From: an uncultured Candidatus Saccharibacteria bacterium
GTDB lineage: Bacteria > Patescibacteriota > Minisyncoccia > UBA6257 > JACOXY01
Assembly: GCA_964357615.1 (NCBI GenBank)
Contig: CAYHMC010000003.1
Coordinates: 34,678 to 98,677 of the forward strand
Length of the DNA: 64,000 nt
Reading direction: 5' to 3'
The position numbers and the translations under genes were made by a program. The notes below the pieces were generated by a model that had not been told where the DNA came from, did not search any database, and saw only the letters and a program-made list of their open reading frames with translations. Shown piece by piece: positions 10,715 through 22,943 of the stretch (the first letter of the stretch is position 1; each line of letters begins with the position of its first letter).

Positions 10715-11064
10715 ACTCTTTTCTCCTCGCTCAAATTTTTATTTGAGCTGTTATTGGTTTTTGATGTGCTGTCATTGCTTCCTTTCAAAATATTTATTGA
10801 GTTAAATATTTTGAAAGGAACCCGAGAGAGTCGACCGGCAATTTCTTGCTCGGCTCGCTCCCTCGGGAAAACGGGTTTTTCTCCGGCTATAAACCCGAAA
10901 ACGGTTCTGCTTTTTTTTGAGTCCGAGAGGGGGATCGGCCCTTCACAGCTGGCTTCTGCCCTCTCGGTGGTAGGTTTTTGCTGAAAACCTTTCCCCAAAA
11001 CAGCGCGCGCAATCCAGGTCAGGCACCTGGGAGCAGGAAGGATTTGGAGTCGTTTAGCACTCCG

Positions 11065-11298
11065 TTATCCTGCTCGTTCGCTTTGAGTCCGGAATGGACC
11101 CCTCACCCGACCCGGGCGAGCAAGCCTATCGTCCTGAACGAATCGGCATGGCAGCGAACCGCCTACATTCTGCATCGAGTGGCCAAACTCGTATGCAGAC
11201 CTCTGCTGAACACATGGGATTTTCCCCTGTGACCCCGTACCCGGATGGCTGCGCGCGTCCATCTGTACAGGAATTAAGATTTTTCTTCGGTAAGCCAT
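11065..11298 (-). CDS. Questionable small ORF (77 aa), cassette 1 gene C; start lies inside the repeated leader element and has no SD
   Basis: Open frame in GC-rich DNA. The region is full of hairpins and may instead be non-coding. Confidence 0.2.
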   Translation of the reverse strand: MAYRRKILIPVQMDARSHPGTGSQGKIPCVQQRSAYEFGHSMQNVGGSLPCRFVQDDRLARPGRVRGPFRTQSERAG

Positions 11299-11578
11299 AG
11301 CTTTAAACGAAGGCTACCCTAATTTCTGTACAGATGATTTACATACCTACTTAAAAAATTTAGCGAAGAACTTTTCTGTTTCGTCCTGAGCTTGTCGAAG
11401 GACTCATCAGTACGAGCATACACTCGTAGACAGAAAGGAGTTTTAAGGTCTCCTTAAACCCTACGCTGTGGTCTCGCTCATGCTTATCAAAAAGTTTGGC
11501 TAGAACTTTTATGTTCTGCTAATGCAGAACTTTTGCATGAATCCCCACTTACGTCTGCGCAAACGGCCAGAGCAACCC

Positions 11579-11857
11579 TTAACCGATACTCAGGTCAAGT
11601 ATTTGTCCGACGTAATCCTTAACATCAACACCTTGCGGTGGAGCGCCAAGAACCACGTACAGACAACGGTCGCTGTAGGCGGATGACATAGCTCGGAAGT
11701 CTGCGCTAATATTCTTAGCCGCAAGCGTCCGACGCACATGCGCAATCCGCCTCTGGCAGGTAGGACAACCATCCGCTTCGGCTACTTCGAAAAGAATGTT
11801 GCCATTCTCCTCCAGTATCGAGCGCGGAGTTGCCCAGCCTTGCACGCGAACTTGCAT
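11579..11857 (-). CDS. Small CxxC (CPTC) protein, thioredoxin/glutaredoxin-like guess, cassette 1 gene D
   Basis: SD GGAGG sits 6 nt before the ATG, and a 7-bp hairpin (CCTCAGA…TCTGAGG) sits just 5' of the SD. The protein contains GCPTCQ. Confidence 0.4.
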   Translation of the reverse strand: MQVRVQGWATPRSILEENGNILFEVAEADGCPTCQRRIAHVRRTLAAKNISADFRAMSSAYSDRCLYVVLGAPPQGVDVKDYVGQILDLSIG

Positions 11858-12039
11858 AATTCACCTCCTTTCATGCCTCAGAGCCATCTGAGGGTTAGTT
11901 GTGAATTATAAATCCATTCTCGAAGAACTTTCAGAAAACAAAATGTTTTCCTGTTAAAACATTCCAATCTTGAAATGCTTTAACAGAAACCCGAATTTTG
12001 TCTCGGGCGGGACACTCGTTTTTCCGGATAACGAGAAAC

Positions 12040-12273
12040 CTACATCGCGAGCTGGGGCTCCTTACGAACTGGGAGTCCCAGCTGGGCGAGTTCGGCGCGA
12101 ACCTTTTGGACCAGCGGACGGTCCGGAAGATTCACTTGCAAGGTAGCTTTACAGCCCTTGCACTTGCCGACCTGACCCAAGAGAGCAAGACGAATGCCCT
12201 CTCGCGGTGAGCGATGCGGACGATTTCGATGTCCGCATTCCTCACAGTAAACATAGAATGGTTTAAAGAACAT
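12040..12273 (-). CDS. Small zinc-ribbon protein (CxxC…CxxC), cassette 1 gene E
   Basis: SD GGAGG sits 4 nt before the ATG. Cys pairs YCEECGH and KCKGCK are spaced 24 aa apart. Confidence 0.4.
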   Translation of the reverse strand: MFFKPFYVYCEECGHRNRPHRSPREGIRLALLGQVGKCKGCKATLQVNLPDRPLVQKVRAELAQLGLPVRKEPQLAM

Positions 12274-12629
12274 TCGACCTCCGATTTCAACCCTAACCTG
12301 CTATTTCTAGTCAGGATTTTACAGGGCGTGATTCCTTAAGGAGAGACCACAGCAAAAGTTCAAATTACTATTTATAACTATGCTAAACTTTTTTCTATGG
12401 CCTCCCCTAAAGGAGGCGGGAGAGATATGTTTAGGTCTGTTATTTTGTAGTTACGACCAATCATCATATCTGCACCCCATATTTATTTTCTGCGGTCATT
12501 ATACTCGATTTTTATGTATTTGTCAAGTGTCGGTGACAAACCGCTAAAATAAGCCTTATTTACTATATTTTATAAGAAAATTACTCTTTATTACTATGTC
12601 AAAATAGATAGACTTAGTTTTTAATATAC

Positions 12630-13822: not shown

Positions 13823-16800
13823 CTAATGACTTTTTAATCCCACCCACACATCGCTTTCTTCGATTTTAGTCTCTATTTCTGCATCAATTTTATTCGTGCG
13901 CTTTAAATTAAGTTTTGTAGCACCCACCTGCTTAATAAATTCTTCACTATGACGTTCAATAATACCTCCGAATTGCTTTGAATCTAAATAGATTTCTATT
14001 TTATTTTTTGGTTGCAATTCAGCTTTTTGTCTTAATTCTTGCACAAGCCTTATAAATTCTCGAAGTATTCCTTCTTCGCGAAGCTCAGGTGTAATTTTTG
14101 TATCTAATTCAACACTCACATCTTTAAGTGTGTCGGAAATTTTTATTTCTTTAACATTAATTTCTTCTTTCAGAATACTAATAAGTTCTTTTTCTTTTAC
14201 AATCTTCGAAGCATCAGATTTTTTAGAAATATAAAGAACCGAAAGTGGTTGTCTAACTTTTATTCCAGCCTCTGCGCGCTTCGCTAATGCTTCGGTTGCG
14301 AGAGATCGCACCCAATGCATATTTTCAAGCAAGTTATTATCAATATGTTTTTTACTTACCACTGGCCAATCCTCAATATGAATTGAATCTTTATGCTCCC
14401 CACTTAAATTCAAAGACTTATAGATTGATTCTCCAAAAAATGGAGCGAATGGGGCCATAAGTTTTGCAATTTCTAAAATTGCAAAGCCCAAAGTTGCCGA
14501 ACAATCCTTAAAATCATTATTATCTTCTGGCCTCTGGAGACGACGACGAGAACGCCTTATGTACCATCTTGATAAATTATCTATCAGTTCTTCAATTGCT
14601 TTTGCTGCATTGCCAACTTCATATTTTTCTAATTCTTCTGTAACTTTCAATATTGTTTTGTTTAAACTTGCCAAAATCCACTTATCTAAAATATGTTTTG
14701 ATTTTAAATTTTTAAATACAGGGATTGGACTCTTATCTGCGTACATTTCATAAAAAACAAAAGAATTATACAAAATATTAAAAACTCTATTTTGAACTTT
14801 TTTAATATCAATTTCATCAAAGTTTTTTGTTTCTCCTGGGGCATTGATTGTATAAAAATACCACCTAATAGCATCAACACCATATTTAGCAATTACATCC
14901 CAGGGATTTACAACATTGCCCTTAGACTTCGACATTTTTTGCCCAAATTTATCATTAATAAGTCCAAGACAAATCACATTTTTAAATGGTGGCTCTTTAT
15001 GTCCCAGTAGCGTCCCAACCGTAAGGAGCGTATAAAACCAACCGCGCGTTTGATCGATTGCTTCACAAATAAAATCAGCTGGGTATGGAAATTCTTTTAA
15101 TCCTAGTCGTCTATCGTCTTTAACCAATGGATTACTTTTTTTGTATTTATTATCAACTGCAAACGGATAATGGGCTGATGCAAGTGGCATTGCGCCAGAA
15201 TCAAACCAAACATCGGCAACTTCTTTTATTCGCATCATCTTTCCATTACACTTTTTACATTTTAATACTACTTCATCTATGAAGGGGCGGTGCATATCAA
15301 GCTCGCCCTGTGTGTTATATGGCCAATTATTTAATTTTACTTTACGCGACTCACCAACCCGAATATAATCCATAGCCAACATTTCTTCATTAGAAAAATT
15401 TTTCATAGCACCCTCCATCATCCACAGTGGATCTCCGTGACTAACTATTAGAATGCGCTTATTAACATGGAGCTTATTAATTTCTCTAATAAATCCAAAT
15501 ACTCTCTTTTTTATATCAGTTAAATTTTCTCCCCCAGGCGGTGTTTTTGTAAATTCTTCAGACGGTGAATCAAAGAAAGCTTTGTGTTCTTTGGTTGGTT
15601 TTTCATTGAATATTCCAGCATTTGCTTCTTCTATTCTTTTATCTACAATAACTTTTATATCTGATGCTTTTCCTATTTCTTTGGCTAGCTCTAGTGCGCG
15701 CTTATAGGGAGATGAATAAATCACATCAATTTTTCCCTTTAACTTTTTAGCAATTTCGATTGCTTCTTTTTTACCTTTTTCTGTAAGTGGTTCTATTTTC
15801 CCCTTTGGGCCAGATGCCACAATATCCTTAACATTGTGTAATGCTTCTGTATGGCGCTGTAGCATAAATTCATTACCATAATAATCATGCTCGTTTAACT
15901 CCGATAAACCTTGTATTACATTTTCAATTCCACAATCCTCACAAGACCAAACAGGAAGCGGTGTACCCCAATAACGCTGTCTTGAAATAGCCCAATCTTT
16001 TGCTTCTTTAATCCATTCTCCAAAACGCCCTTCTTTTATGTGCTCTGGTATCCAATTAATTTTTTTATTGGAAGATAGAAGTTGTGGTCGGAGCTTAGAA
16101 ACTTCTATAAACCATGCTGTTCTAGCAAAATAAATAAGCGGAGTAGAACATCTCCAGCAAAAAGGATATTCATGTTCTTGTTTCTCTGACTTATACATCA
16201 ATCCCCTTTTTTCTAAGTCAGCAATGATATCATTGTCTGCGCTTTTGATAAATTTATGCGCTCCTGGGAATCCAGCTACCATATTACCATCGTCATCAAC
16301 TGTCACTGGAATATTTTGATATGAAAAACTATCCACAGATGATTTAATCAAATTAAAATCATCGACACCAAAAGCTGGCGCGATATGAACAAAACCTGTG
16401 CCATCTTCTACTAAAACAAAATCAGCGCTATAGACGCGATAAGAATTATCGCTTGATAGCTTATTGTGCGAAGTTTTATACAATGGTTCGTATTCAAGAC
16501 CAATCAATTTTTTACCAGATATTTTCTCGACAGCTTCTATGCTGTAATCTTCTTTCGTGGGAGGAGGATTTATAGACCAAATATATTCCAGCTTAGCGCC
16601 AGTCGAAAAAGATTTTTTTATAGCGTACTTTGTATATGTAACTCCAGAATTAACTGCGATAGCAACATTAGCTGGAAGTGTCCATGGCGTTGTAGTCCAA
16701 ACCAATAAGTATTCGTTTGTTTTATTTTTTATTTTGAACTTTATGTAAATTGATGGGTCTTTAACTTTTTTATATACACCAGGTTGACCCAACTCATGAC

Positions 16801-17368
16801 TCGCTAAAACCGTTTGACACCTTGGACAATATGGAACAACTTTATAATCTTTGCGTAATAAACCTTTATTTGATATTTGCGACAAAACCCACCAAAGCGA
16901 TTCAATATAATAATTTTCATAAGTAGCATAGGCGTTTTTTAAATCCAACCAAAATCCTATACGATTAGTCATTTTTTCCCACTCATCTTTATATTTCCAA
17001 ACAACTTCTTTAGCTTTTTGATTAAATAATCCTATGCCGAACTGTTCAATATCTTTTTTGTTCTTAATTCCTAATTCTTTTTCAACTTCTATTTCCACGG
17101 GGAGGCCATGAGTATCCCAGCCAGCACGGCGCGGAACATAATAACCACGCATAGTTTTATATCTAAGTATAATATCTTTAAAAACACGGCCCAATATATG
17201 ATGAATACCTGGCCTTCCATTGGCTGTTGGAGGACCTTCGTAAAAAACAAATCTTTCTCCCTTCTCTTTGGTCTTTAAAGTTTTCTCGAAAATTTGATTC
17301 GTTTTCCAATATTCTAAGACTTTTTCTTCAATGTCTGCTAGTTTAAATTCTTTTAGATTTTTTAACAT
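13823..17368 (-). CDS. ileS: Isoleucyl-tRNA synthetase (type 2) carrying an inserted histidine-phosphatase-like domain
   Basis: PPTANG…IHHILG (HIGH region), the CP1 editing domain, KMSKS, and zinc knuckles WSCEDCG and CKKCNG. About 185 aa between the knuckles carry LQRHTE, SSPYKRALELA and IVSHGD (RHG / SHG phosphatase motifs). Confidence 0.9.
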   Translation of the reverse strand: MLKNLKEFKLADIEEKVLEYWKTNQIFEKTLKTKEKGERFVFYEGPPTANGRPGIHHILGRVFKDIILRYKTMRGYYVPRRAGWDTHGLPVEIEVEKELGIKNKKDIEQFGIGLFNQKAKEVVWKYKDEWEKMTNRIGFWLDLKNAYATYENYYIESLWWVLSQISNKGLLRKDYKVVPYCPRCQTVLASHELGQPGVYKKVKDPSIYIKFKIKNKTNEYLLVWTTTPWTLPANVAIAVNSGVTYTKYAIKKSFSTGAKLEYIWSINPPPTKEDYSIEAVEKISGKKLIGLEYEPLYKTSHNKLSSDNSYRVYSADFVLVEDGTGFVHIAPAFGVDDFNLIKSSVDSFSYQNIPVTVDDDGNMVAGFPGAHKFIKSADNDIIADLEKRGLMYKSEKQEHEYPFCWRCSTPLIYFARTAWFIEVSKLRPQLLSSNKKINWIPEHIKEGRFGEWIKEAKDWAISRQRYWGTPLPVWSCEDCGIENVIQGLSELNEHDYYGNEFMLQRHTEALHNVKDIVASGPKGKIEPLTEKGKKEAIEIAKKLKGKIDVIYSSPYKRALELAKEIGKASDIKVIVDKRIEEANAGIFNEKPTKEHKAFFDSPSEEFTKTPPGGENLTDIKKRVFGFIREINKLHVNKRILIVSHGDPLWMMEGAMKNFSNEEMLAMDYIRVGESRKVKLNNWPYNTQGELDMHRPFIDEVVLKCKKCNGKMMRIKEVADVWFDSGAMPLASAHYPFAVDNKYKKSNPLVKDDRRLGLKEFPYPADFICEAIDQTRGWFYTLLTVGTLLGHKEPPFKNVICLGLINDKFGQKMSKSKGNVVNPWDVIAKYGVDAIRWYFYTINAPGETKNFDEIDIKKVQNRVFNILYNSFVFYEMYADKSPIPVFKNLKSKHILDKWILASLNKTILKVTEELEKYEVGNAAKAIEELIDNLSRWYIRRSRRRLQRPEDNNDFKDCSATLGFAILEIAKLMAPFAPFFGESIYKSLNLSGEHKDSIHIEDWPVVSKKHIDNNLLENMHWVRSLATEALAKRAEAGIKVRQPLSVLYISKKSDASKIVKEKELISILKEEINVKEIKISDTLKDVSVELDTKITPELREEGILREFIRLVQELRQKAELQPKNKIEIYLDSKQFGGIIERHSEEFIKQVGATKLNLKRTNKIDAEIETKIEESDVWVGLKSH

Positions 17369-17734: not shown

Positions 17735-18616
17735 ATGAATTTTCTTATTCCATTTTTAGGTGCGCTACTTGGCTCTGGAGCAATTATTGTAGATAAAATT
17801 CTTCTTGGCGGAAAAGGCATCACATACAAAAACTATTCTATAATATCATTTCTTGCCGCACTTTTTGTAGCAGGTATAGCATTTATTTTCGTAGGCAAGC
17901 CAATAGTGTCCGAGTTGTTTTATGGCTATGCTGGCTTTCTCTTGATTTTTACGACAATCGCGATTCTAACTTCAAACCTACTTTATTTTCATGCGCTTAA
18001 GCACGACTTGTTAACTGAAATGGAAACGGTGGGTTTATTATCATATATTCCAGTTATAGCTACTTCGTATATTTTTTACACCGATGAACGAAGTTTGCCA
18101 GTTCTTATTTCTGCAATAATAGCATCGCTAGCTGTAATATGGTCACACTGGAAAAAAGGACATCCATTTGTTAGGAAAAGAACTTATCCTTACCTTTTGT
18201 GGTTATTGATTATTGCGCCGATAGAGGCGATTGCTTTTAAAGAAATATTTCTTATGTGGGACCCGATTTCACTTCAGTTTGTGCGTGAAATTATTATAGT
18301 TCCAATTCTGGGTTATATGTATGCAGACACACTAAGGCGTGTTCCAGTGCGGTCTTTTTTTGCAATTTTTTTTACAGGAGCAGTTCTTACTTTAAGTTCT
18401 ATTTTGTTTTTTGTTAGCTACAGCAAATTAGGCATAATCCGTACTACTCTAATTTTTAACTTACAACCATTGCTTGCGTATATCGGAGCGCTTCTTTTTC
18501 TTAAAGAGAAATTTAACAGAAAAAAATTTATTGCATTTTTAATAGTTCTAATTTCAATTGTAGTAGCTCAGAATTACGAACAAATAGAGCTTTTTATAAA
18601 ACAATCCCTACAGTAA
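17735..18616 (+). CDS. Polytopic membrane protein, DMT/EamA-like transporter
   Basis: About 10 predicted TM helices; duplicated 5-TM organisation. Confidence 0.5.
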   Translation: MNFLIPFLGALLGSGAIIVDKILLGGKGITYKNYSIISFLAALFVAGIAFIFVGKPIVSELFYGYAGFLLIFTTIAILTSNLLYFHALKHDLLTEMETVGLLSYIPVIATSYIFYTDERSLPVLISAIIASLAVIWSHWKKGHPFVRKRTYPYLLWLLIIAPIEAIAFKEIFLMWDPISLQFVREIIIVPILGYMYADTLRRVPVRSFFAIFFTGAVLTLSSILFFVSYSKLGIIRTTLIFNLQPLLAYIGALLFLKEKFNRKKFIAFLIVLISIVVAQNYEQIELFIKQSLQ

Positions 18617-18953: not shown

Positions 18954-20558
18954 CTACATCTTTTTTGGCTTAGCAATGCCAAGCAAATCAAGTGTGTTAC
19001 TTAAAATTGTTTGGGTTGCTTCTACAAGTTTTAATCTAAGTAAAGCTAAATTTTTATCTTTTTCTCCCATTATCCTTTCTTTCTCGTAGAAGTTATGAAG
19101 AGCGTGCGAAAGTTCACTTGCATAGCGCGTAAGTCTGTGCACTTGATAGTCTTCTGCTGTGCCTAGAACCACCTCTTTAAATTTCGTAAGTTCGCGAATA
19201 AGTCTTAAGCTTGCCTCTGAATTCAAGAGGCTTAAATTGAGCTTTAGATTTTTTTTATCTAATTTTTGCTTTTTGGCTTTTTGCAATATTGCACCACATC
19301 TGACATAAGCGTATTGAACATAATAAACAGGGTTTTTAACAGAGCGCTCTTTAGCGAGTTTCAAATCAAAATCCATATGACTTTCTGGCGCATGCATTAA
19401 AAAGAAAAATCTTGTGGCATCTACTCCAACTTCACTTATTACTTCCTCAAAAGTTATAAATTCTCCTTTGCGTTTTGACATCTTTACTTCAACGCCATCC
19501 TTAATAACCCTTACTGCTTGGGTTACCAATATATCAAGACTCTCGAGTCCCAATATAGTGGCGGAGGCTTTAATTCTACTCACATAGCCATAGTGATCTG
19601 GTCCCAAAATTAAAATCTTTTTAATAAAACCCCTAGTTTTTGTTTCTAACATATGACCAGAGTCGGCAAGAAAATAAGTGGGAAACGCATCGCTTGTAAT
19701 TAAAACTCTATCCTTGTCATCGCCAAAATGCGTTGTTTTAAGCCAAACCGCACCATCTTTTTTATATGTAAGTTCTTTTAAGTCAAAAATAGCGATGGTA
19801 TTTTTAATAAAATTCTTCTTGTGAATATTTTTATCCTCTGAAGTATAGCGATCAAAATGAATACCAGATTTTTTCTCAATTATTTTTTTAATATCAGAAA
19901 GCAAATCTTTACCAGCTTTTTTACCAATAGTAATTGGGTCTTTCTGGTTCTTTCTTATAAATGTTTTATTTTTAGAAGCCCAAGTTTTTATATAATGACC
20001 TTGGTAGAATTTTTCATCACCTGCGATTAAGCCAACCGCAGATAAAAGTGATTTTCCTAAAGTTATAATCTGATTTCCAGTATCATTTACATAATATTCT
20101 CTCTCAATTTTTTGTCCGGTAAATTCTAAAACATTTGAAAGAACATCGCCCAAAAAACCTCCGCGTCCATTTGCCATTGTGAGTGGACCAGTAGGATTTG
20201 CTGAAATAAATTCAACTTGGATTTTCTCTTTAGATTTTAATTTAGATTTACCATATTTATCTTTATCCTTTAAAATCTCATTAAATTCAGCCTGAATCGT
20301 TTTCTTAGAAAGCCAAAAATTAATAAACCCTGGATTTGCGACATCAATTTTATCGAACAACCCACTAGTGTCTTTCGCAGAAATCTCCTCTTTAAGTTTT
20401 TTGGCAACTTCAATTGGTGACATTTTCCATATTTTCGAGAGCTCGAAAGAAACATTAGTAGAATAATGTCCAAAAGCAATATTTTCTTGCGAAGAAACTA
20501 ATATACTAACATTTTCTAATATGGCTTTTCTTAGTAAATCAATTATCTTTGTGCGCAT
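18954..20558 (-). CDS. argS: Arginyl-tRNA synthetase with degenerate HIGH motif
   Basis: FISANPTGPL…GRG matches the ArgRS signature. The C-terminal DALR region is YVQYAYVRCGAIL. Canonical H(V/I)GH is replaced by TMAN. Confidence 0.9.
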   Translation of the reverse strand: MRTKIIDLLRKAILENVSILVSSQENIAFGHYSTNVSFELSKIWKMSPIEVAKKLKEEISAKDTSGLFDKIDVANPGFINFWLSKKTIQAEFNEILKDKDKYGKSKLKSKEKIQVEFISANPTGPLTMANGRGGFLGDVLSNVLEFTGQKIEREYYVNDTGNQIITLGKSLLSAVGLIAGDEKFYQGHYIKTWASKNKTFIRKNQKDPITIGKKAGKDLLSDIKKIIEKKSGIHFDRYTSEDKNIHKKNFIKNTIAIFDLKELTYKKDGAVWLKTTHFGDDKDRVLITSDAFPTYFLADSGHMLETKTRGFIKKILILGPDHYGYVSRIKASATILGLESLDILVTQAVRVIKDGVEVKMSKRKGEFITFEEVISEVGVDATRFFFLMHAPESHMDFDLKLAKERSVKNPVYYVQYAYVRCGAILQKAKKQKLDKKNLKLNLSLLNSEASLRLIRELTKFKEVVLGTAEDYQVHRLTRYASELSHALHNFYEKERIMGEKDKNLALLRLKLVEATQTILSNTLDLLGIAKPKKM

Positions 20559-20660: not shown

Positions 20661-21317
20661 GTGAAATTCCAAGACCTCGTGCGAATAAATTTGGCAGCAA
20701 AATTTATTCATGAATCTAACTTAATTGAAGATGTTGATATTAAAATTGAGGCAATAAGAGAATGGATTAAAATGCGCTATAAACTTGGTCATGTAGGGGC
20801 ATTATTATTTTTAGAATATTGTCTAGATAAAGATATTCGTTTTAGCGAGATAGTTCTTTTTCAAATTCATAGATATATCATAGATGAACAAAACGAATAT
20901 TTTTCTGATATTTTAATTTCAGAAAATTTAATTGGTAAATATAGAAATAAACCGGTAAAAATTGGGACGCGCTTCGGACTTGATCATCGCTTAATCAGAG
21001 ACGAGATGGCTAAGCTAATTGAAAGAATTGAAAAATTTCAGCTTAAAGAAAAAAATAAAACAGGACTACTTAGAAAAAGCGACGAGCATGGTATCGTAGA
21101 AAAAATCGCCGATTTCCACTTTAGATACGAGCGCATTCATCCATTTATTGACGGTAACGGCAGAACTGGCAGACTTTTGGTTTGGTACTTGATGAAATTC
21201 GCAGGACTTAAACCTTTTATATTTACCTCACGCGACAAAGGACACACCTATTATGAAGCGTGTCGCTCGCAAAAATTAATGCGAGAATATTTTGCAACTC
21301 GAGCACTGTCAGCTTAA
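20661..21317 (+). CDS. Fic family protein (AMPylator-type)
   Basis: Core motif HPFIDGNGRTGRLL (HPFx[DE]GNGRxxR). Confidence 0.85.
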   Translation: MKFQDLVRINLAAKFIHESNLIEDVDIKIEAIREWIKMRYKLGHVGALLFLEYCLDKDIRFSEIVLFQIHRYIIDEQNEYFSDILISENLIGKYRNKPVKIGTRFGLDHRLIRDEMAKLIERIEKFQLKEKNKTGLLRKSDEHGIVEKIADFHFRYERIHPFIDGNGRTGRLLVWYLMKFAGLKPFIFTSRDKGHTYYEACRSQKLMREYFATRALSA

Positions 21318-21361
21318 TATGGTACAAAATCAAAAGAGCCAACTAGGCTCTTTTTTAAATT

Positions 21362-22057
21362 TTAATCATGATGGTTGCTAAATTCTCTATATAAACAAAA
21401 TTCGCATCTTTTGTTTACTGGTGGTAATGGCTCTCGTAGTGTTAGGACGGCCTCTCGAAAAGTTTTTAGCACACTGTCTGGGTCTGTATTAACTTTATAA
21501 ATTGAAATATTAAACGCTAAGGGATTTTTAATATCCATATTCTTATGGTCCAGATACCAATAAACTAAATAAGCTATATTTTCAGTTTTAATATCATTCT
21601 CTCTTAAAAACAAAGCATATGCACTCATTTGATATGCATAAGATGGATGTGGCTCGCCAGGTGGAAAACCCTTTGTCTTGTTATCGAGTGGCACTATAGA
21701 CCCATCTTCAAGCTCTAATGCATCATCTAACATTCCCTGAAAGTAGGCGTTAGTTTCTTTATCTAAAATACCAAAAGTTCTCGAGCGAAATTTTGCAATA
21801 AGTGCCTCATTAGACAAAAGTTTTACTTTTATTTTTTTAAATTTTTCATCTAAAAACGGTGGGGAACCTCCATTTTTTCTAAAATAATCAAAATAGTTTT
21901 TAAGCGTATAGTCCACTCCATTTGGGAGCGTTGACATAGGTCCAGATGGGCGCTTTATTTCTTCGTTAAACTGAAGCCAAAAACATCTCGAACAATCTCG
22001 ATAGAGAGAAAGGGATGAAGGAGATAATTTTATTAAACCAGCTTTTGATTTTGACAT
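21362..22057 (-). CDS. PD-(D/E)xK nuclease, Cas4/RecB-like with four-Cys cluster
   Basis: N-terminal CSRC and C-terminal CEFC give four Cys, as in Cas4/AddB Fe-S nucleases. Also a QxxxY motif (YQMSAY) and D/E-K residues. Confidence 0.5.
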   Translation of the reverse strand: MSKSKAGLIKLSPSSLSLYRDCSRCFWLQFNEEIKRPSGPMSTLPNGVDYTLKNYFDYFRKNGGSPPFLDEKFKKIKVKLLSNEALIAKFRSRTFGILDKETNAYFQGMLDDALELEDGSIVPLDNKTKGFPPGEPHPSYAYQMSAYALFLRENDIKTENIAYLVYWYLDHKNMDIKNPLAFNISIYKVNTDPDSVLKTFREAVLTLREPLPPVNKRCEFCLYREFSNHHD

Positions 22058-22117: not shown

Positions 22118-22579
22118 ATGATGCAAGATAAAACAGGAAACATTTTAAGCATAAACAAAAAAGCTTCATTTGATTATGAAATCATTGAAACATATGTGGC
22201 TGGCGTGCAACTTTTAGGATTTGAGGTTAAGTCTATTCGAAAAGGATCAGCGTCTTTAATTGGCGCTTTTGTTGTAGTTCGTGGTGGTGAAGTATATTTG
22301 CTAAACGCCAATATTCCCCCATATCAATCAAACAATTCTCCAAAAGATTATGAATCAACCCGTAGCAGAAAACTACTTCTCAAGAAATCAGAAATTGCTG
22401 AGTTAATTGGTAAAACAGAAAAGACTGGCTTGACACTTGTGCCACTTAAGTTGTATAATATGGGCAGTAGAATTAAGTTACAAATCGGCTTAGCGCGCAA
22501 TAAAAAGAAACATGACAAACGTGCTTCCATAAAGAAGAAAGATGTTGAGCGCGAAGTTGGGCGTAGACTTAAAGGATAA
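22118..22579 (+). CDS. smpB: SsrA-binding protein
   Basis: Typical SmpB sequence (KKASFDYEIIETYVAGVQLLGFEVKSIRKG…). The tmRNA gene follows immediately. Confidence 0.9.
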   Translation: MMQDKTGNILSINKKASFDYEIIETYVAGVQLLGFEVKSIRKGSASLIGAFVVVRGGEVYLLNANIPPYQSNNSPKDYESTRSRKLLLKKSEIAELIGKTEKTGLTLVPLKLYNMGSRIKLQIGLARNKKKHDKRASIKKKDVEREVGRRLKG

Positions 22580-22583
22580 AAAT

Positions 22584-22931
22584 GGGGATGAAAGGCCTCG
22601 ACAGGCTACTAACCTTAAAAATTGCAAGCAGAGATGTGAAATCTCTTAAAACATTCACAAAAGAATAAGTGCAAACTCATTCAACAAACAACCGGCCTTA
22701 GCATTTGCATAAGACCCATCGACGCTACTTACGCCTAATCGGTTGATCGTCGGTGTTAAATTATTAGGCTCTGTTCCCTACTCCTGCGGAGGGAATGAAT
22801 ATTGAGCGGGAAAGTGTTGTGTGCTTGGCCTCCTGGCACTTGGCACATGACACTTAAAATAATGTCAGGATAAGCTTGTAGATATTTTTAATTTTACGGC
22901 CTGGACGGCGGTTCAAATCCGCCCATCTCCA
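22584..22931 (+). ncRNA. ssrA: tmRNA (SsrA)
   Basis: 5' GGGGATGAAAGGCCTCGACAGG. Tag reading frame GCA AAC TCA TTC AAC AAA CAA CCG GCC TTA GCA TTT GCA TAA gives ANSFNKQPALAFA. 3' tRNA-like end GGCGGTTCAAATCCGCCCATCTCCA. Confidence 0.85.
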
Positions 22932-22943
22932 CAAACTAAAAGA

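What the first reader, a model, noticed from the sequence alone, without database searches (positions are those of the whole stretch)
15295..15860. Histidine-phosphatase (PGAM-like) domain inserted inside isoleucyl-tRNA synthetase
Between the first zinc knuckle (PVWSCEDCG) and the second (LKCKKCNG) canonical IleRS has only about 20-40 residues. Here about 185 residues intervene and carry the three signature elements of the histidine-phosphatase superfamily in order: LQRHTE (RHG-type catalytic His), SSPYKRALELA (second Arg) and IVSHGD (SHG). I do not know of an aaRS-phosphatase fusion. Possible roles are hydrolysis of a phosphorylated nucleotide or tRNA 2',3'-cyclic or 3'-phosphate end, an (p)ppApp or Ap4A link, or a regulatory pseudo-enzyme.
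Basis: partly seen in the sequence, partly recalled or inferred. Interest (0 to 1): 0.7.

Follow-up and report, generated by a model that had tools for sequence, protein, structure and literature searches.

The report
Phosphatase domain built into isoleucyl-tRNA synthetase
The enzyme that loads isoleucine onto tRNA in this tiny-genome (Parcubacteria) bacterium carries a complete, apparently active phosphatase domain spliced into one of its zinc loops, and close relatives encode the same phosphatase as a separate gene directly in front of the synthetase gene, so the two probably work together in a way not yet described.

Summary
ORF 13823-17368 (-) encodes a 1181-aa type-2 IleRS. About 197 residues (aa ~493-689) replace a 10-residue loop of the CP3 zinc knuckle.

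- **Domain identity:** the insert matches His_Phos_1 (94.7 bits, E 7.5e-27). It folds with pLDDT 94.7 into a branch-1 histidine-phosphatase fold.
- **Catalytic residues:** R505, H506, R557 and H644 are invariant and E581 is kept in 119 of 120 homologues.
- **Not an artefact:** at least 345 GTDB species of Parcubacteria carry it at the same site.
- **New finding:** in insert-less sister lineages, a free-standing 180-198-aa phosphatase of the same subfamily sits directly upstream of ileS (argS-HP-ileS). This held in 33 of 33 informative loci. No locus has both forms. An NJ tree of the IleRS core implies at least two changes of architecture.
- **Other fusions:** related phosphatases are fused to ArgRS, Sua5/TsaC and ATP sulfurylase, all of which release PPi.
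- **Literature:** I found no paper describing this.

Best reading: an IleRS-coupled active phosphohydrolase. The substrate is unknown; PPi is my leading guess. The main rival is a hitch-hiking metabolic enzyme, possibly the phosphoglycerate mutase reported as undetected in some Parcubacteria.

The parts
13823..17368 (-). ileS::HP, a single ORF of 1181 aa: type-2 isoleucyl-tRNA synthetase with an inserted histidine-phosphatase domain.
   Evidence: ORF. TIGR00392 ileS scores 859.5 bits (cutoff 621.4). Pfam domains tRNA-synt_1, Anticodon_1, DUF5915 and His_Phos_1. The AF2 full-length model has pLDDT 90.3 and pTM 0.84.
15956..17368 (-). IleRS N-terminal part (aa 1-471): first half of the Rossmann fold with the GIHH (HIGH-type) motif, the CP core zinc cysteines C181/C184/C404/C407, the CP1 editing domain and CP2.
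   Evidence: Aligns to T. thermophilus IleRS 1ILE residues 2-477. Editing-domain structures 1WK8 and 1UE0 match aa 199-402. Coordinates.
15929..15955 (-). First half of the CP3 zinc knuckle, PVWSCEDCG (C476, C479).
   Evidence: Aligns with C461/C464 of 1ILE. C476 is kept in 114/120 homologues and C479 in 99/120. The zinc motif of Tth IleRS lies in the CP3 subdomain (PMC7191050).
15302..15892 (-). Inserted module, aa ~493-689: branch-1 histidine-phosphatase domain plus short linkers.
   Evidence: It corresponds to the gap in the alignment to 1ILE. The Pfam His_Phos_1 envelope is aa 502-664, window 15377-15865. AF2 gives pLDDT 94.7 and pTM 0.91. The top Foldseek PDB hit is 4IJ6 PspA, E 3.5e-14.
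15851..15856 (-). R505-H506 of the RHG-type motif (RHT in this protein). H506 is the predicted phospho-accepting histidine.
   Evidence: R and H are invariant in 120/120 homologues. They are also invariant in every group of related phosphatases examined.
15698..15700 (-). R557, the second phosphate-binding arginine (motif SSPYKR).
   Evidence: Invariant in 120/120 homologues, with S553 and P554 also invariant.
15626..15628 (-). E581, the predicted general acid.
   Evidence: E in 119/120 homologues and D in one. E or D in the other groups.
15422..15439 (-). H644 within HGDPLW, the second catalytic histidine and a subfamily-specific motif.
   Evidence: H644 is invariant in 120/120. D646, P647, L648 and W649 are each kept in at least 90%. 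This motif was used for the collection scans.
15242..15265 (-). Second half of the CP3 zinc knuckle, LKCKKCNG (C704, C707).
   Evidence: Aligns with C502/C504 of 1ILE. Both cysteines are invariant in 120/120.
13826..15241 (-). IleRS C-terminal part (aa 710-1181): second half of the Rossmann fold with KMSKS (window 14924-14938), the anticodon-binding domain and the type-2 C-terminal domain (DUF5915).
   Evidence: Aligns to 1ILE residues 488-821. Pfam Anticodon_1 and DUF5915. Motif positions.
18954..20558 (-). argS (ArgRS, 534 aa, no phosphatase domain), the syntenic upstream neighbour. In insert-less relatives the free-standing phosphatase gene lies between argS and ileS. In this window that position holds only an EamA transporter gene (17735-18616, +).
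   Evidence: Pfam Arg_tRNA_synt_N, tRNA-synt_1d and DALR_1, and EamA. Synteny compared.

Best explanation
Shown: this is a genuine type-2 IleRS. A complete branch-1 histidine-phosphatase (HP) domain has been inserted into a surface loop of its CP3 zinc knuckle, and the domain keeps its full catalytic set (R505, H506, R557, E581, H644).

Shown: the insert is the fused form of a two-gene module. In related Parcubacteria the same HP subfamily is a separate 180-198-aa gene directly upstream of an insert-less ileS (argS-HP-ileS). The two arrangements are mutually exclusive. An NJ tree of the IleRS core implies that the architecture changed at least twice.

Inferred: the HP works with IleRS as an extra catalytic module, held at CP3. 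It would hydrolyse a phosphorylated small molecule linked to adenylate chemistry, through a phospho-histidine (H506) intermediate.

My leading candidate substrate is pyrophosphate. Removing this product would pull amino-acid activation forward and limit pyrophosphorolysis. The basis is that the other multidomain partners of this HP subfamily also convert ATP to X-AMP plus PPi: ArgRS, Sua5/TsaC and ATP sulfurylase.

My confidence by step:
- Identity of the domain: about 0.97.
- Functional coupling to IleRS: about 0.55-0.6.
- PPi as the substrate: about 0.2-0.25.
For: Identity and fold:
- His_Phos_1 scores 94.7 bits and TIGR00392 ileS scores 859.5 bits.
- AF2 of the insert gives pLDDT 94.7. The whole protein gives pLDDT 90.3 and pTM 0.84, with pLDDT 94-97 across the insert.
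- Foldseek finds branch-1 HPs at E around 1e-13 to 1e-14.

Selection on catalysis:
- R505, H506, R557 and H644 are invariant and E581 is kept in 119/120 homologues that share only 52-68% identity overall.
- The same residues are kept in a second insert-bearing clade and in the free-standing forms.

Distribution:
- All 120 best IleRS hits carry PF00300.
- 345 confirmed stretches in GTDB species genomes; of the 80 best listed, 78 carry Patescibacteria/Parcubacteria-type or generic labels and two (L077, L079) carry other labels.
- All 80 are collinear IleRS-N / HP / IleRS-C, with one HP copy per locus.

Linkage to ileS:
- 6 of 6 insert-less relatives have argS-HP-ileS.
- In a metagenome sample of 80 loci, 48 were inserted. 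All 27 informative free-standing HPs lay upstream of an insert-less ileS on the same strand, 25 within 400 nt and 2 about 600 nt away. The other 5 were cut by contig ends.

Architecture changes:
- In the IleRS-core NJ tree, insert clade B groups with the insert-less sequences against insert clade A plus the outgroup in 200/200 bootstraps.

PPi theme:
- ArgRS::HP occurs in 3 clusters.
- Sua5::HP.
- HP::PUA_2::ATP-sulfurylase, 3 cluster members, next to a sulfotransferase gene.
- A branch-2 HP-superfamily enzyme with PPase activity has been reported (PMC7926622).
Against: - No activity or substrate has been measured.
- The whole region (L20-L35-IF3, smpB, argS, ileS, recO, a class II aaRS gene (tRNA-synt_2b)) is syntenic in these bacteria. 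Adjacency alone is therefore weaker evidence than usual.
- The ArgRS fusions can be explained by simple read-through of neighbouring genes.
- The Sua5 fusion rests on a single 3.7-kb contig.
- In the ATP-sulfurylase context the substrate could equally be 3'-phosphoadenosine 5'-phosphate.
- All aaRS release PPi, so this idea does not explain why IleRS in particular carries the domain.
- I know of no branch-1 HP that acts as a pyrophosphatase. The closest solved relatives act on phosphomonoesters such as phosphoserine, glucosyl-3-phosphoglycerate and alpha-ribazole phosphate.
- I had no model coordinates, so I could not check whether the HP active site faces the synthetic site.
- I could not determine whether these genomes lack a conventional pyrophosphatase.
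Confidence: 0.5

Rival explanations
1. Hitch-hiking metabolic enzyme. The HP is an ordinary small-molecule phosphatase or mutase that the cell needs for reasons unrelated to tRNA charging. It happened to lie next to ileS and became embedded in a permissive surface loop. It is retained because its own function is essential.

A specific version: it is the divergent phosphoglycerate mutase that HMM surveys fail to detect in some Parcubacteria.
For: - Jaffe et al. [quoted passage not shown] Their dPGM model TIGR01258 used a 67.1-bit threshold (PMC7304191). The insert scores only 38.2 bits on that model and would have been missed.
- Among the best NCBIfam matches is the short archaeal dPGM family, at 66-71 bits.
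- There is a pyruvate kinase gene in the window.
- A precedent exists for an apparently unrelated fusion, the bifunctional RNase H / acid phosphatase family NF005567.
- The locus is generally syntenic, so adjacency could be inherited rather than selected.
Against: - An internal insertion 1.4 kb into the neighbouring gene is not a simple read-through fusion.
- The NJ tree implies that the architecture changed at least twice, always at the same loop.
- The free-standing form was directly upstream of ileS in 33 of 33 informative cases.
- No curated cutoff is reached: pgm_1 scores 38 against 81.7, dPGM_arch 71 against 225, PspA 76 against 350.
- Relatives fused to Sua5 and ATP sulfurylase point to nucleotide or PPi chemistry, not glycolysis.
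Confidence: 0.3
2. tRNA end-healing module. The HP removes a 3'- or 2'-phosphate (or the product of an opened 2',3'-cyclic phosphate) from the CCA end of damaged tRNA, so that IleRS can charge it. This was one of the first reader's suggestions.
For: - The domain is tethered to a tRNA-binding enzyme, and the free-standing gene sits between two aaRS genes.
- An ATP-sulfurylase-fused relative sits next to a PAPS-type sulfotransferase. There, a 3'-phosphoadenosine phosphatase would make sense, and that substrate chemically resembles a 3'-phosphorylated A76.
Against: - As far as I know, no HP-superfamily enzyme is known to act on RNA ends.
- A general repair activity would not need to be tied to a single synthetase.
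- The Sua5 fusion partner has no known 3'-phosphate substrate.
- Nothing here was tested.
Confidence: 0.1
3. Regulatory or structural module. The HP would be a protein phosphohistidine or phosphoserine phosphatase acting on IleRS or a partner. Alternatively it would be a catalytically silent scaffold that modulates tRNA binding.
For: - The superfamily includes protein phosphatases. SixA gives a weak match, 22.7 bits against a cutoff of 74.5.
- The high pTM of the full model suggests that the domain is docked in a fixed position.
Against: - The catalytic residues are invariant over deep divergence, which argues against a pseudo-enzyme.
- The closest sequence and structure relatives are small-molecule phosphatases.
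- No kinase partner was identified.
Confidence: 0.07
4. Artefact: an assembly chimera, frameshift or mis-called gene creates an apparent fusion.
For: None found. Many database entries of the form 'HP plus C-terminal half of IleRS' do exist.
Against: - The ORF is continuous and its composition is uniform.
- The same architecture occurs at the same site in 120/120 homologues, at least 345 GTDB species and 48 metagenome contigs from independent projects.
- The half-length entries that I checked start 45-159 nt from contig ends, so they are fragments.
Confidence: 0.01

Closest known systems
Type-2 (eukaryote/archaeon-like) isoleucyl-tRNA synthetase, e.g. Thermus thermophilus IleRS (PDB 1ILE) and Priestia megaterium IleRS2 (8C8U)
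   Same: All IleRS parts are present and collinear: the Rossmann fold with HIGH-type and KMSKS motifs, the CP core, the CP1 editing domain, CP2, the CP3 zinc knuckle with four cysteines, the anticodon-binding domain and the type-2 C-terminal domain. E values are 3e-225 to 1ILE and 1e-221 to 8C8W.
   Different: About 197 residues forming an independent enzyme domain replace 10 residues of the CP3 loop. No solved IleRS has this. It is not mentioned in a 2026 survey of 96,219 IleRS sequences (10.64898/2026.02.03.703510).
Small branch-1 histidine phosphatases: PspA phosphoserine phosphatase (4IJ5/4IJ6), PhoE (1H2E), Rv2419c glucosyl-3-phosphoglycerate phosphatase (4QIH), CobC (6E4B)
   Same: The fold, the size (~190 aa) and the R-H / R / E / H catalytic constellation are the same. 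Foldseek E values are 1e-12 to 1e-14 and TM-scores about 0.7. phmmer gives E 5e-16 to 4IJ5.
   Different: Sequence identity is only 20-29%. No curated NCBIfam cutoff is reached. The domain has its own motifs, HGDPLW and F-N-W-R. It is embedded in, or encoded directly next to, IleRS.
Bifunctional RNase H / acid phosphatase of actinobacteria (NCBIfam NF005567; Rv2228c type, named from my own knowledge)
   Same: A branch-1 HP domain is fused to a housekeeping nucleic-acid enzyme. The insert matches the HP part at 55-57 bits.
   Different: That case is an end-to-end fusion, not an internal insertion. The partner and lineage are different. The score is far below the 326-bit cutoff.
NCBIfam NF040702, 'isoleucine--tRNA ligase, N-acetyltransferase domain-containing' (ileS_w_GNAT)
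   Same: It is a precedent for an IleRS that carries an additional enzyme domain.
   Different: The extra domain there is a GNAT, not an HP. This protein scores 265.7 bits against a cutoff of 1999, matching only the N-terminal IleRS part.
Fusions of ATP sulfurylase with inorganic pyrophosphatase in some eukaryotes (from my own knowledge, not checked here)
   Same: They share the logic proposed here: a PPi-releasing adenylyl-transferase is physically joined to an enzyme that removes a product.
   Different: Those use a canonical family I pyrophosphatase. Here the domain is a histidine phosphatase whose substrate is unknown.

Membership tests
Histidine phosphatase superfamily, branch 1 (Pfam PF00300 His_Phos_1) | Profile score at or above the curated gathering score. 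| tested here: met
   94.7 bits in the whole protein and 98.9 bits for the insert alone, against a cutoff of 21.7.
Histidine phosphatase superfamily, branch 1 (Pfam PF00300 His_Phos_1) | RHG-type motif after strand 1, containing the nucleophilic histidine. | tested here: met
   The motif is L-Q-R505-H506-T-E. R and H are invariant in 120/120. The third position is G in 80, T in 24, C in 9 and A in 5.
Histidine phosphatase superfamily, branch 1 (Pfam PF00300 His_Phos_1) | The second arginine, the general-acid glutamate and the second histidine of the phosphate pocket. | tested here: met
   R557 in 120/120, E581 in 119/120 and H644 in 120/120. The same holds in clade B and in the free-standing forms.
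Histidine phosphatase superfamily, branch 1 (Pfam PF00300 His_Phos_1) | Alpha/beta fold of the superfamily. | tested here: met
   The AF2 model has pLDDT 94.7. There are 302 PDB matches at E <= 0.001, and the 50 listed are all branch-1 HPs.
Histidine phosphatase superfamily, branch 1 (Pfam PF00300 His_Phos_1) | Phosphoryl transfer through a phospho-histidine intermediate (measured activity). | not testable with these tools
   This needs an enzyme assay with an H506A control.
Isoleucyl-tRNA synthetase (TIGR00392 ileS), type 2 | Equivalog profile score at or above the cutoff. | tested here: met
   859.5 bits against 621.4.
Isoleucyl-tRNA synthetase (TIGR00392 ileS), type 2 | Class I signature motifs, the CP1 editing domain and the type-2 C-terminal domain. 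| tested here: met
   GIHH at aa 54-57 and KMSKS at aa 811-815. Editing-domain structures match aa 199-402. DUF5915 is present at the C-terminus.
2,3-BPG-dependent phosphoglycerate mutase (TIGR01258 pgm_1; NF038349 dPGM_arch) | Profile score at or above the curated cutoff. | tested here: not met
   pgm_1 scores 38.2 against 81.7 and matches only part of the domain. dPGM_arch scores 66-71 against 225. Mutase activity as such was not tested.
Phosphoserine phosphatase PspA (NF045917) and alpha-ribazole phosphatase CobC (TIGR03162) | Profile score at or above the curated cutoff. | tested here: not met
   PspA scores 72-76 against 350. CobC scores 63-67 against 162.9.
IleRS with GNAT domain (NF040702 ileS_w_GNAT) | Profile score at or above the cutoff, and presence of a GNAT domain. 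| tested here: not met
   265.7 bits against 1999. Pfam finds no acetyltransferase domain.
Inorganic pyrophosphatase (considered as a function, not as homology) | Hydrolysis of PPi. | not testable with these tools
   There is no sequence relation to family I PPases.

The most novel reading that the evidence does not exclude
IleRS of a large group of Parcubacteria has acquired a third catalytic centre besides synthesis and editing. This is a histidine-phosphatase module that acts in cis on a product or substrate of the aminoacylation cycle. The substrate could be PPi, or a phosphorylated adenosine or tRNA end.

Evolution has repeatedly toggled between a non-covalent HP-IleRS pair and a single polypeptide, always at the same CP3 loop. 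That would be a new class of aaRS accessory activity. It would also be a rare documented case of recurrent domain insertion or excision at one site.
Probability: 0.3. Interest if true: 0.8.

Novelty: new variant of a known kind. Interest (0 to 1): 0.65.

Why it matters
Aminoacyl-tRNA synthetases are among the best-studied enzymes. Their known bacterial add-ons are editing, tRNA-binding and zinc modules. I found no report of a conserved, apparently active phosphatase built into the catalytic body of IleRS in hundreds of species.

If the phosphatase acts on PPi or on tRNA or nucleotide ends, it would reveal a new way of driving or protecting tRNA charging in ultra-small, metabolically poor cells.

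If instead it is the phosphoglycerate mutase reported as undetected in some Parcubacteria clades, it closes a gap in their predicted glycolysis. It would also warn that metabolic reconstructions miss enzymes hidden inside other genes.

There is a practical consequence too. NCBI labels the insert-bearing proteins only as 'class I tRNA ligase family protein', whereas insert-less relatives are named isoleucine--tRNA ligase.

The paired architectures, fused and adjacent, also give a natural experiment for studying how one domain becomes inserted into another.

Tried and rejected
1. **Chimera or frameshift.** Rejected by recurrence across independent assemblies.
2. **Split IleRS.** I considered a version with the N-half encoded separately and HP plus the C-half as a second gene, suggested by many ~650-aa database entries. 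The two I checked start 45 and 159 nt from contig ends, so they are fragments.
3. **Canonical dPGM, PspA, CobC or SixA.** All score below their curated cutoffs.
4. **Direction of evolution.** I tried to decide between insertion of a free gene and excision of the insert.
   - Parsimony on the IleRS-core NJ tree favours two insertions.
   - The shared linker motifs of clades A and B favour one insertion followed by excision or recombination.
   - The HP-domain tree (184 columns) is too weakly supported to decide.
5. **Conventional pyrophosphatase or iPGM.**
   - I looked in the window and in the fetched loci and found none.
   - Only about 64 kb of this genome is visible, so this says nothing about the whole genome.
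6. **Foldseek against AFDB50.** The library was not available.
7. **Metagenome scan with 33 diverse free-standing HPs.** I repeated it with 10 sequences.
8. **Literature searches.** I found no description of the fusion.
9. **Geometry.** No model coordinates were accessible, so I could not examine the position of the HP active site relative to the IleRS active sites or the tRNA.
Full report
**1. The observation**

Window 13823-17368 (-) is one uninterrupted ORF of 1181 aa. PVWSCEDCG is aa 472-480, LQRHTE is 503-508, SSPYKRALELA is 552-562, IVSHGD is 641-646 and LKCKKCNG is 702-709.

The protein passes the curated IleRS model, TIGR00392, with 859.5 bits against a cutoff of 621.4. It also has a Pfam His_Phos_1 domain at aa 502-664, with 94.7 bits against 21.7 and E 7.5e-27.

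Against solved structures, aa 2-492 align with T. thermophilus IleRS 1ILE residues 2-477, and aa 690-1036 align with residues 488-821. The foreign module is therefore about aa 493-689 (window 15302-15892). It replaces 10 residues of the loop between zinc ligands C461/C464 and C502/C504 of the Thermus enzyme, which correspond to C476/C479 and C704/C707 here. According to PMC7191050 this zinc motif belongs to the CP3 subdomain.

GC content is even across the gene.

**2. The insert is a real, independently folding and probably active enzyme domain**

AlphaFold2 on aa 481-701 with a 25-sequence alignment gave pLDDT 94.7 and pTM 0.91. The full-length model gave pLDDT 90.3 and pTM 0.84, with pLDDT 94-97 across the insert.

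Foldseek against the PDB returned only branch-1 histidine phosphatases among the 50 listed matches. They include:
- PspA phosphoserine phosphatase 4IJ6, E 3.5e-14
- Rv2419c
- PhoE
- CobC
- dPGMs

In 120 homologues that share only 52-68% identity with this protein, R505, H506, R557 and H644 are invariant and E581 is E in 119. No curated NCBIfam phosphatase or mutase model is passed. PspA scores 76 against 350, dPGM_arch 71 against 225, CobC 67 against 163 and pgm_1 38 against 82. The substrate class therefore cannot be read from homology.

**3. Distribution**

All 120 best hits to the whole protein are 1127-1219 aa long and carry PF00300. Where they are named, they come from Parcubacteria/Patescibacteria: Liptonbacteria, Harrisonbacteria, Colwellbacteria and Minisyncoccota.

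A scan of one genome per GTDB species with the subfamily motif [IV][VI][GS]HGDPLW found 345 confirmed stretches. Of the 80 best, 78 carry Patescibacteria/Parcubacteria-type or generic labels. Two (L077 and L079) are labelled Acutalibacteraceae and Gammaproteobacteria, which I take to be mislabelled bins. All 80 are collinear IleRS-N / HP / IleRS-C, with a single HP copy per locus.

This count is a lower bound, because most members of a second insert-bearing clade lack that motif. An exhaustive profile-free search with the insert found 7020 representatives at E <= 0.001. Among the best 150, about two thirds are IleRS or IleRS fragments with the domain at the same place.

An assembly artefact is excluded.

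**4. The key finding: a two-gene form of the same module**

The closest free-standing relatives of the insert are not scattered in genomes. P0168 and P0182 lie between argS and an insert-less ileS of 938 and 964 aa.

A search with that insert-less IleRS returned a mixture of insert-less (914-994 aa) and insert-bearing (1120-1198 aa) proteins with interleaved scores. Four further insert-less genes that I looked up all have a 192-198-aa His_Phos_1 gene 1-20 nt upstream on the same strand.

A metagenome scan centred on a free-standing HP returned 80 loci:
- 48 had the HP inserted in ileS.
- 27 had a free-standing HP upstream of an insert-less ileS on the same strand, 25 of them within 400 nt and 2 about 600 nt away.
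- 5 were cut by contig ends and were uninformative.

No locus has both forms. In the window itself argS (18954-20558, -) is present, but the position between argS and ileS holds only an EamA transporter gene.

**5. Evolutionary history**

I built an NJ tree of the IleRS core from 875 columns with the insert removed. It resolves:
- clade A, 120 sequences with the insert, including this protein
- clade B, 47 sequences with the insert
- clade C, 69 sequences without the insert
- two further insert-less sequences
- an insert-less outgroup

B, C and the two singles group together against A plus the outgroup in 200/200 bootstraps. The order within that group is unresolved. At least two changes of architecture are therefore needed.

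Parsimony favours two insertions. However, A and B share the exact junctions and linker motifs (N-x-[FY] before RHG, and xPYNxxGE[LI]D before HRP) that the free genes lack. This favours one insertion followed by excision or recombination. The HP-domain tree is too weak to decide. I leave the direction open.

**6. Other partners of this phosphatase subfamily**

Among the 150 best representatives, the non-IleRS multidomain proteins are:
- ArgRS with a C-terminal HP. This occurs in three clusters at 100, 88 and 49% identity. It sits at the same locus, consistent with read-through of argS into the neighbouring HP gene.
- Sua5/TsaC with a C-terminal HP, seen on one 3.7-kb contig.
- HP-PUA_2-ATP sulfurylase, a cluster of three members, encoded next to a sulfotransferase in a polysaccharide gene cluster.

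All of these partners convert ATP into an adenylate plus PPi.

**7. Mechanism**

What is shown:
- an intact histidine-phosphatase active site under purifying selection
- physical or genomic linkage to IleRS in every case examined

What is inferred: the domain acts with IleRS.

I favour hydrolysis of PPi, because PPi is the only product common to all partners. The ATP-sulfurylase reaction in particular needs product removal (established knowledge). The superfamily can also cleave phosphoanhydrides, as in the branch-2 enzyme with PPase activity in PMC7926622.

The weak points are these:
- Every aaRS makes PPi, so the idea does not explain the tie to IleRS.
- I know of no branch-1 PPase.
- I could not see the geometry of the model or the rest of the genome.

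The main rival is a hitch-hiking metabolic enzyme. Jaffe et al. note that PGM is undetected in several shallow Parcubacteria clades, with a 67.1-bit dPGM threshold. This domain scores 38.2 bits and would fail that threshold.

tRNA end-healing and regulatory roles are less likely. A pseudo-enzyme is disfavoured.

**8. Novelty**

Searches of 8 million papers and preprints found no description of an aaRS-histidine-phosphatase fusion. A 2026 survey of 96,219 IleRS sequences does not mention it.

The architecture is visible in precomputed Pfam annotations, and NCBI calls these proteins only 'class I tRNA ligase family protein'.

I rate it a new variant of a known kind: IleRS with a new inserted catalytic domain. 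Interest is 0.65.

Noticed in passing
window 11373-11436 (-), within 10800-12300: There is a near-threshold type III hammerhead ribozyme: RF00008, 44.6 bits against a gathering score of 48.5, E 6e-8 for the 2.2 kb searched. Its catalytic core is intact (CUGAUGAG ... CGAAAC ... GUC). It lies in a ~1.5-kb stretch with GC-rich islands (50-60% GC in a ~33% GC genome) and no ORF with a Pfam family.
   Followed up: partly
P0253/P0271/P0272; loci L093 6001-8070 and L094 6001-8163: These are ArgRS proteins with a C-terminal histidine-phosphatase domain of the same subfamily, in three clusters. In L093 the fused gene is followed directly by recO, so ileS has left the locus. In L094 it is followed by a divergent ileS with 39% identity to the window's.
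   Followed up: yes
P0212, locus L081 8001-9707: This is a His_Phos_1 + PUA_2 + ATP-sulfurylase fusion of 568 aa, from a cluster with three members from three sources. It is encoded just upstream of a Sulfotransfer_1 gene inside a glycosyltransferase-rich cluster. No APS kinase is seen in the 17.7-kb locus.
   Followed up: partly
P0216, locus L087 977-2140: Sua5/YciO/YrdC (threonylcarbamoyl-AMP synthase) carries a C-terminal His_Phos_1 domain. It was seen on a single 3.7-kb contig.
   Followed up: partly
P0199 and P0214: P0199 is an IleRS with two tandem phosphatase domains (aa 541-697 and 743-899), with a duplicated knuckle segment between them. P0214 combines an IleRS N-part interrupted by an IS200-like Y1 transposase domain (aa 340-461), the phosphatase, and a C-terminal GNAT, and it lacks the rest of IleRS. 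It may be a decayed paralogue or a misassembly.
   Followed up: no
P0002, P0005, P0027 etc. compared with P0404, P0466: NCBI names the insert-bearing proteins only 'class I tRNA ligase family protein'. Insert-less relatives are named 'isoleucine--tRNA ligase'. The insert therefore seems to degrade automatic naming, even though TIGR00392 is passed here.
   Followed up: no
window 20661-22057: A Fic/DOC-family gene (20661-21317, +) and a PD-(D/E)XK nuclease-family gene (21362-22057, -) sit between argS and smpB. Related loci have argS and smpB adjacent, so this pair looks like an insertion into the conserved gene order.
   Followed up: no
locus L085 6540-9434 (-): The outgroup-like insert-less IleRS has lost all four cysteines of the CP3 zinc knuckle (PIWETEDGE ... 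LKTPSGKE). It still has the free-standing phosphatase gene next to it, in convergent orientation.
   Followed up: no
window 22118-22934: smpB (22118-22579, +) is followed 5 nt later by the tmRNA gene (22584-22934, tag peptide ANSFNKQPALAFA). This is an ordinary trans-translation pair.
   Followed up: yes
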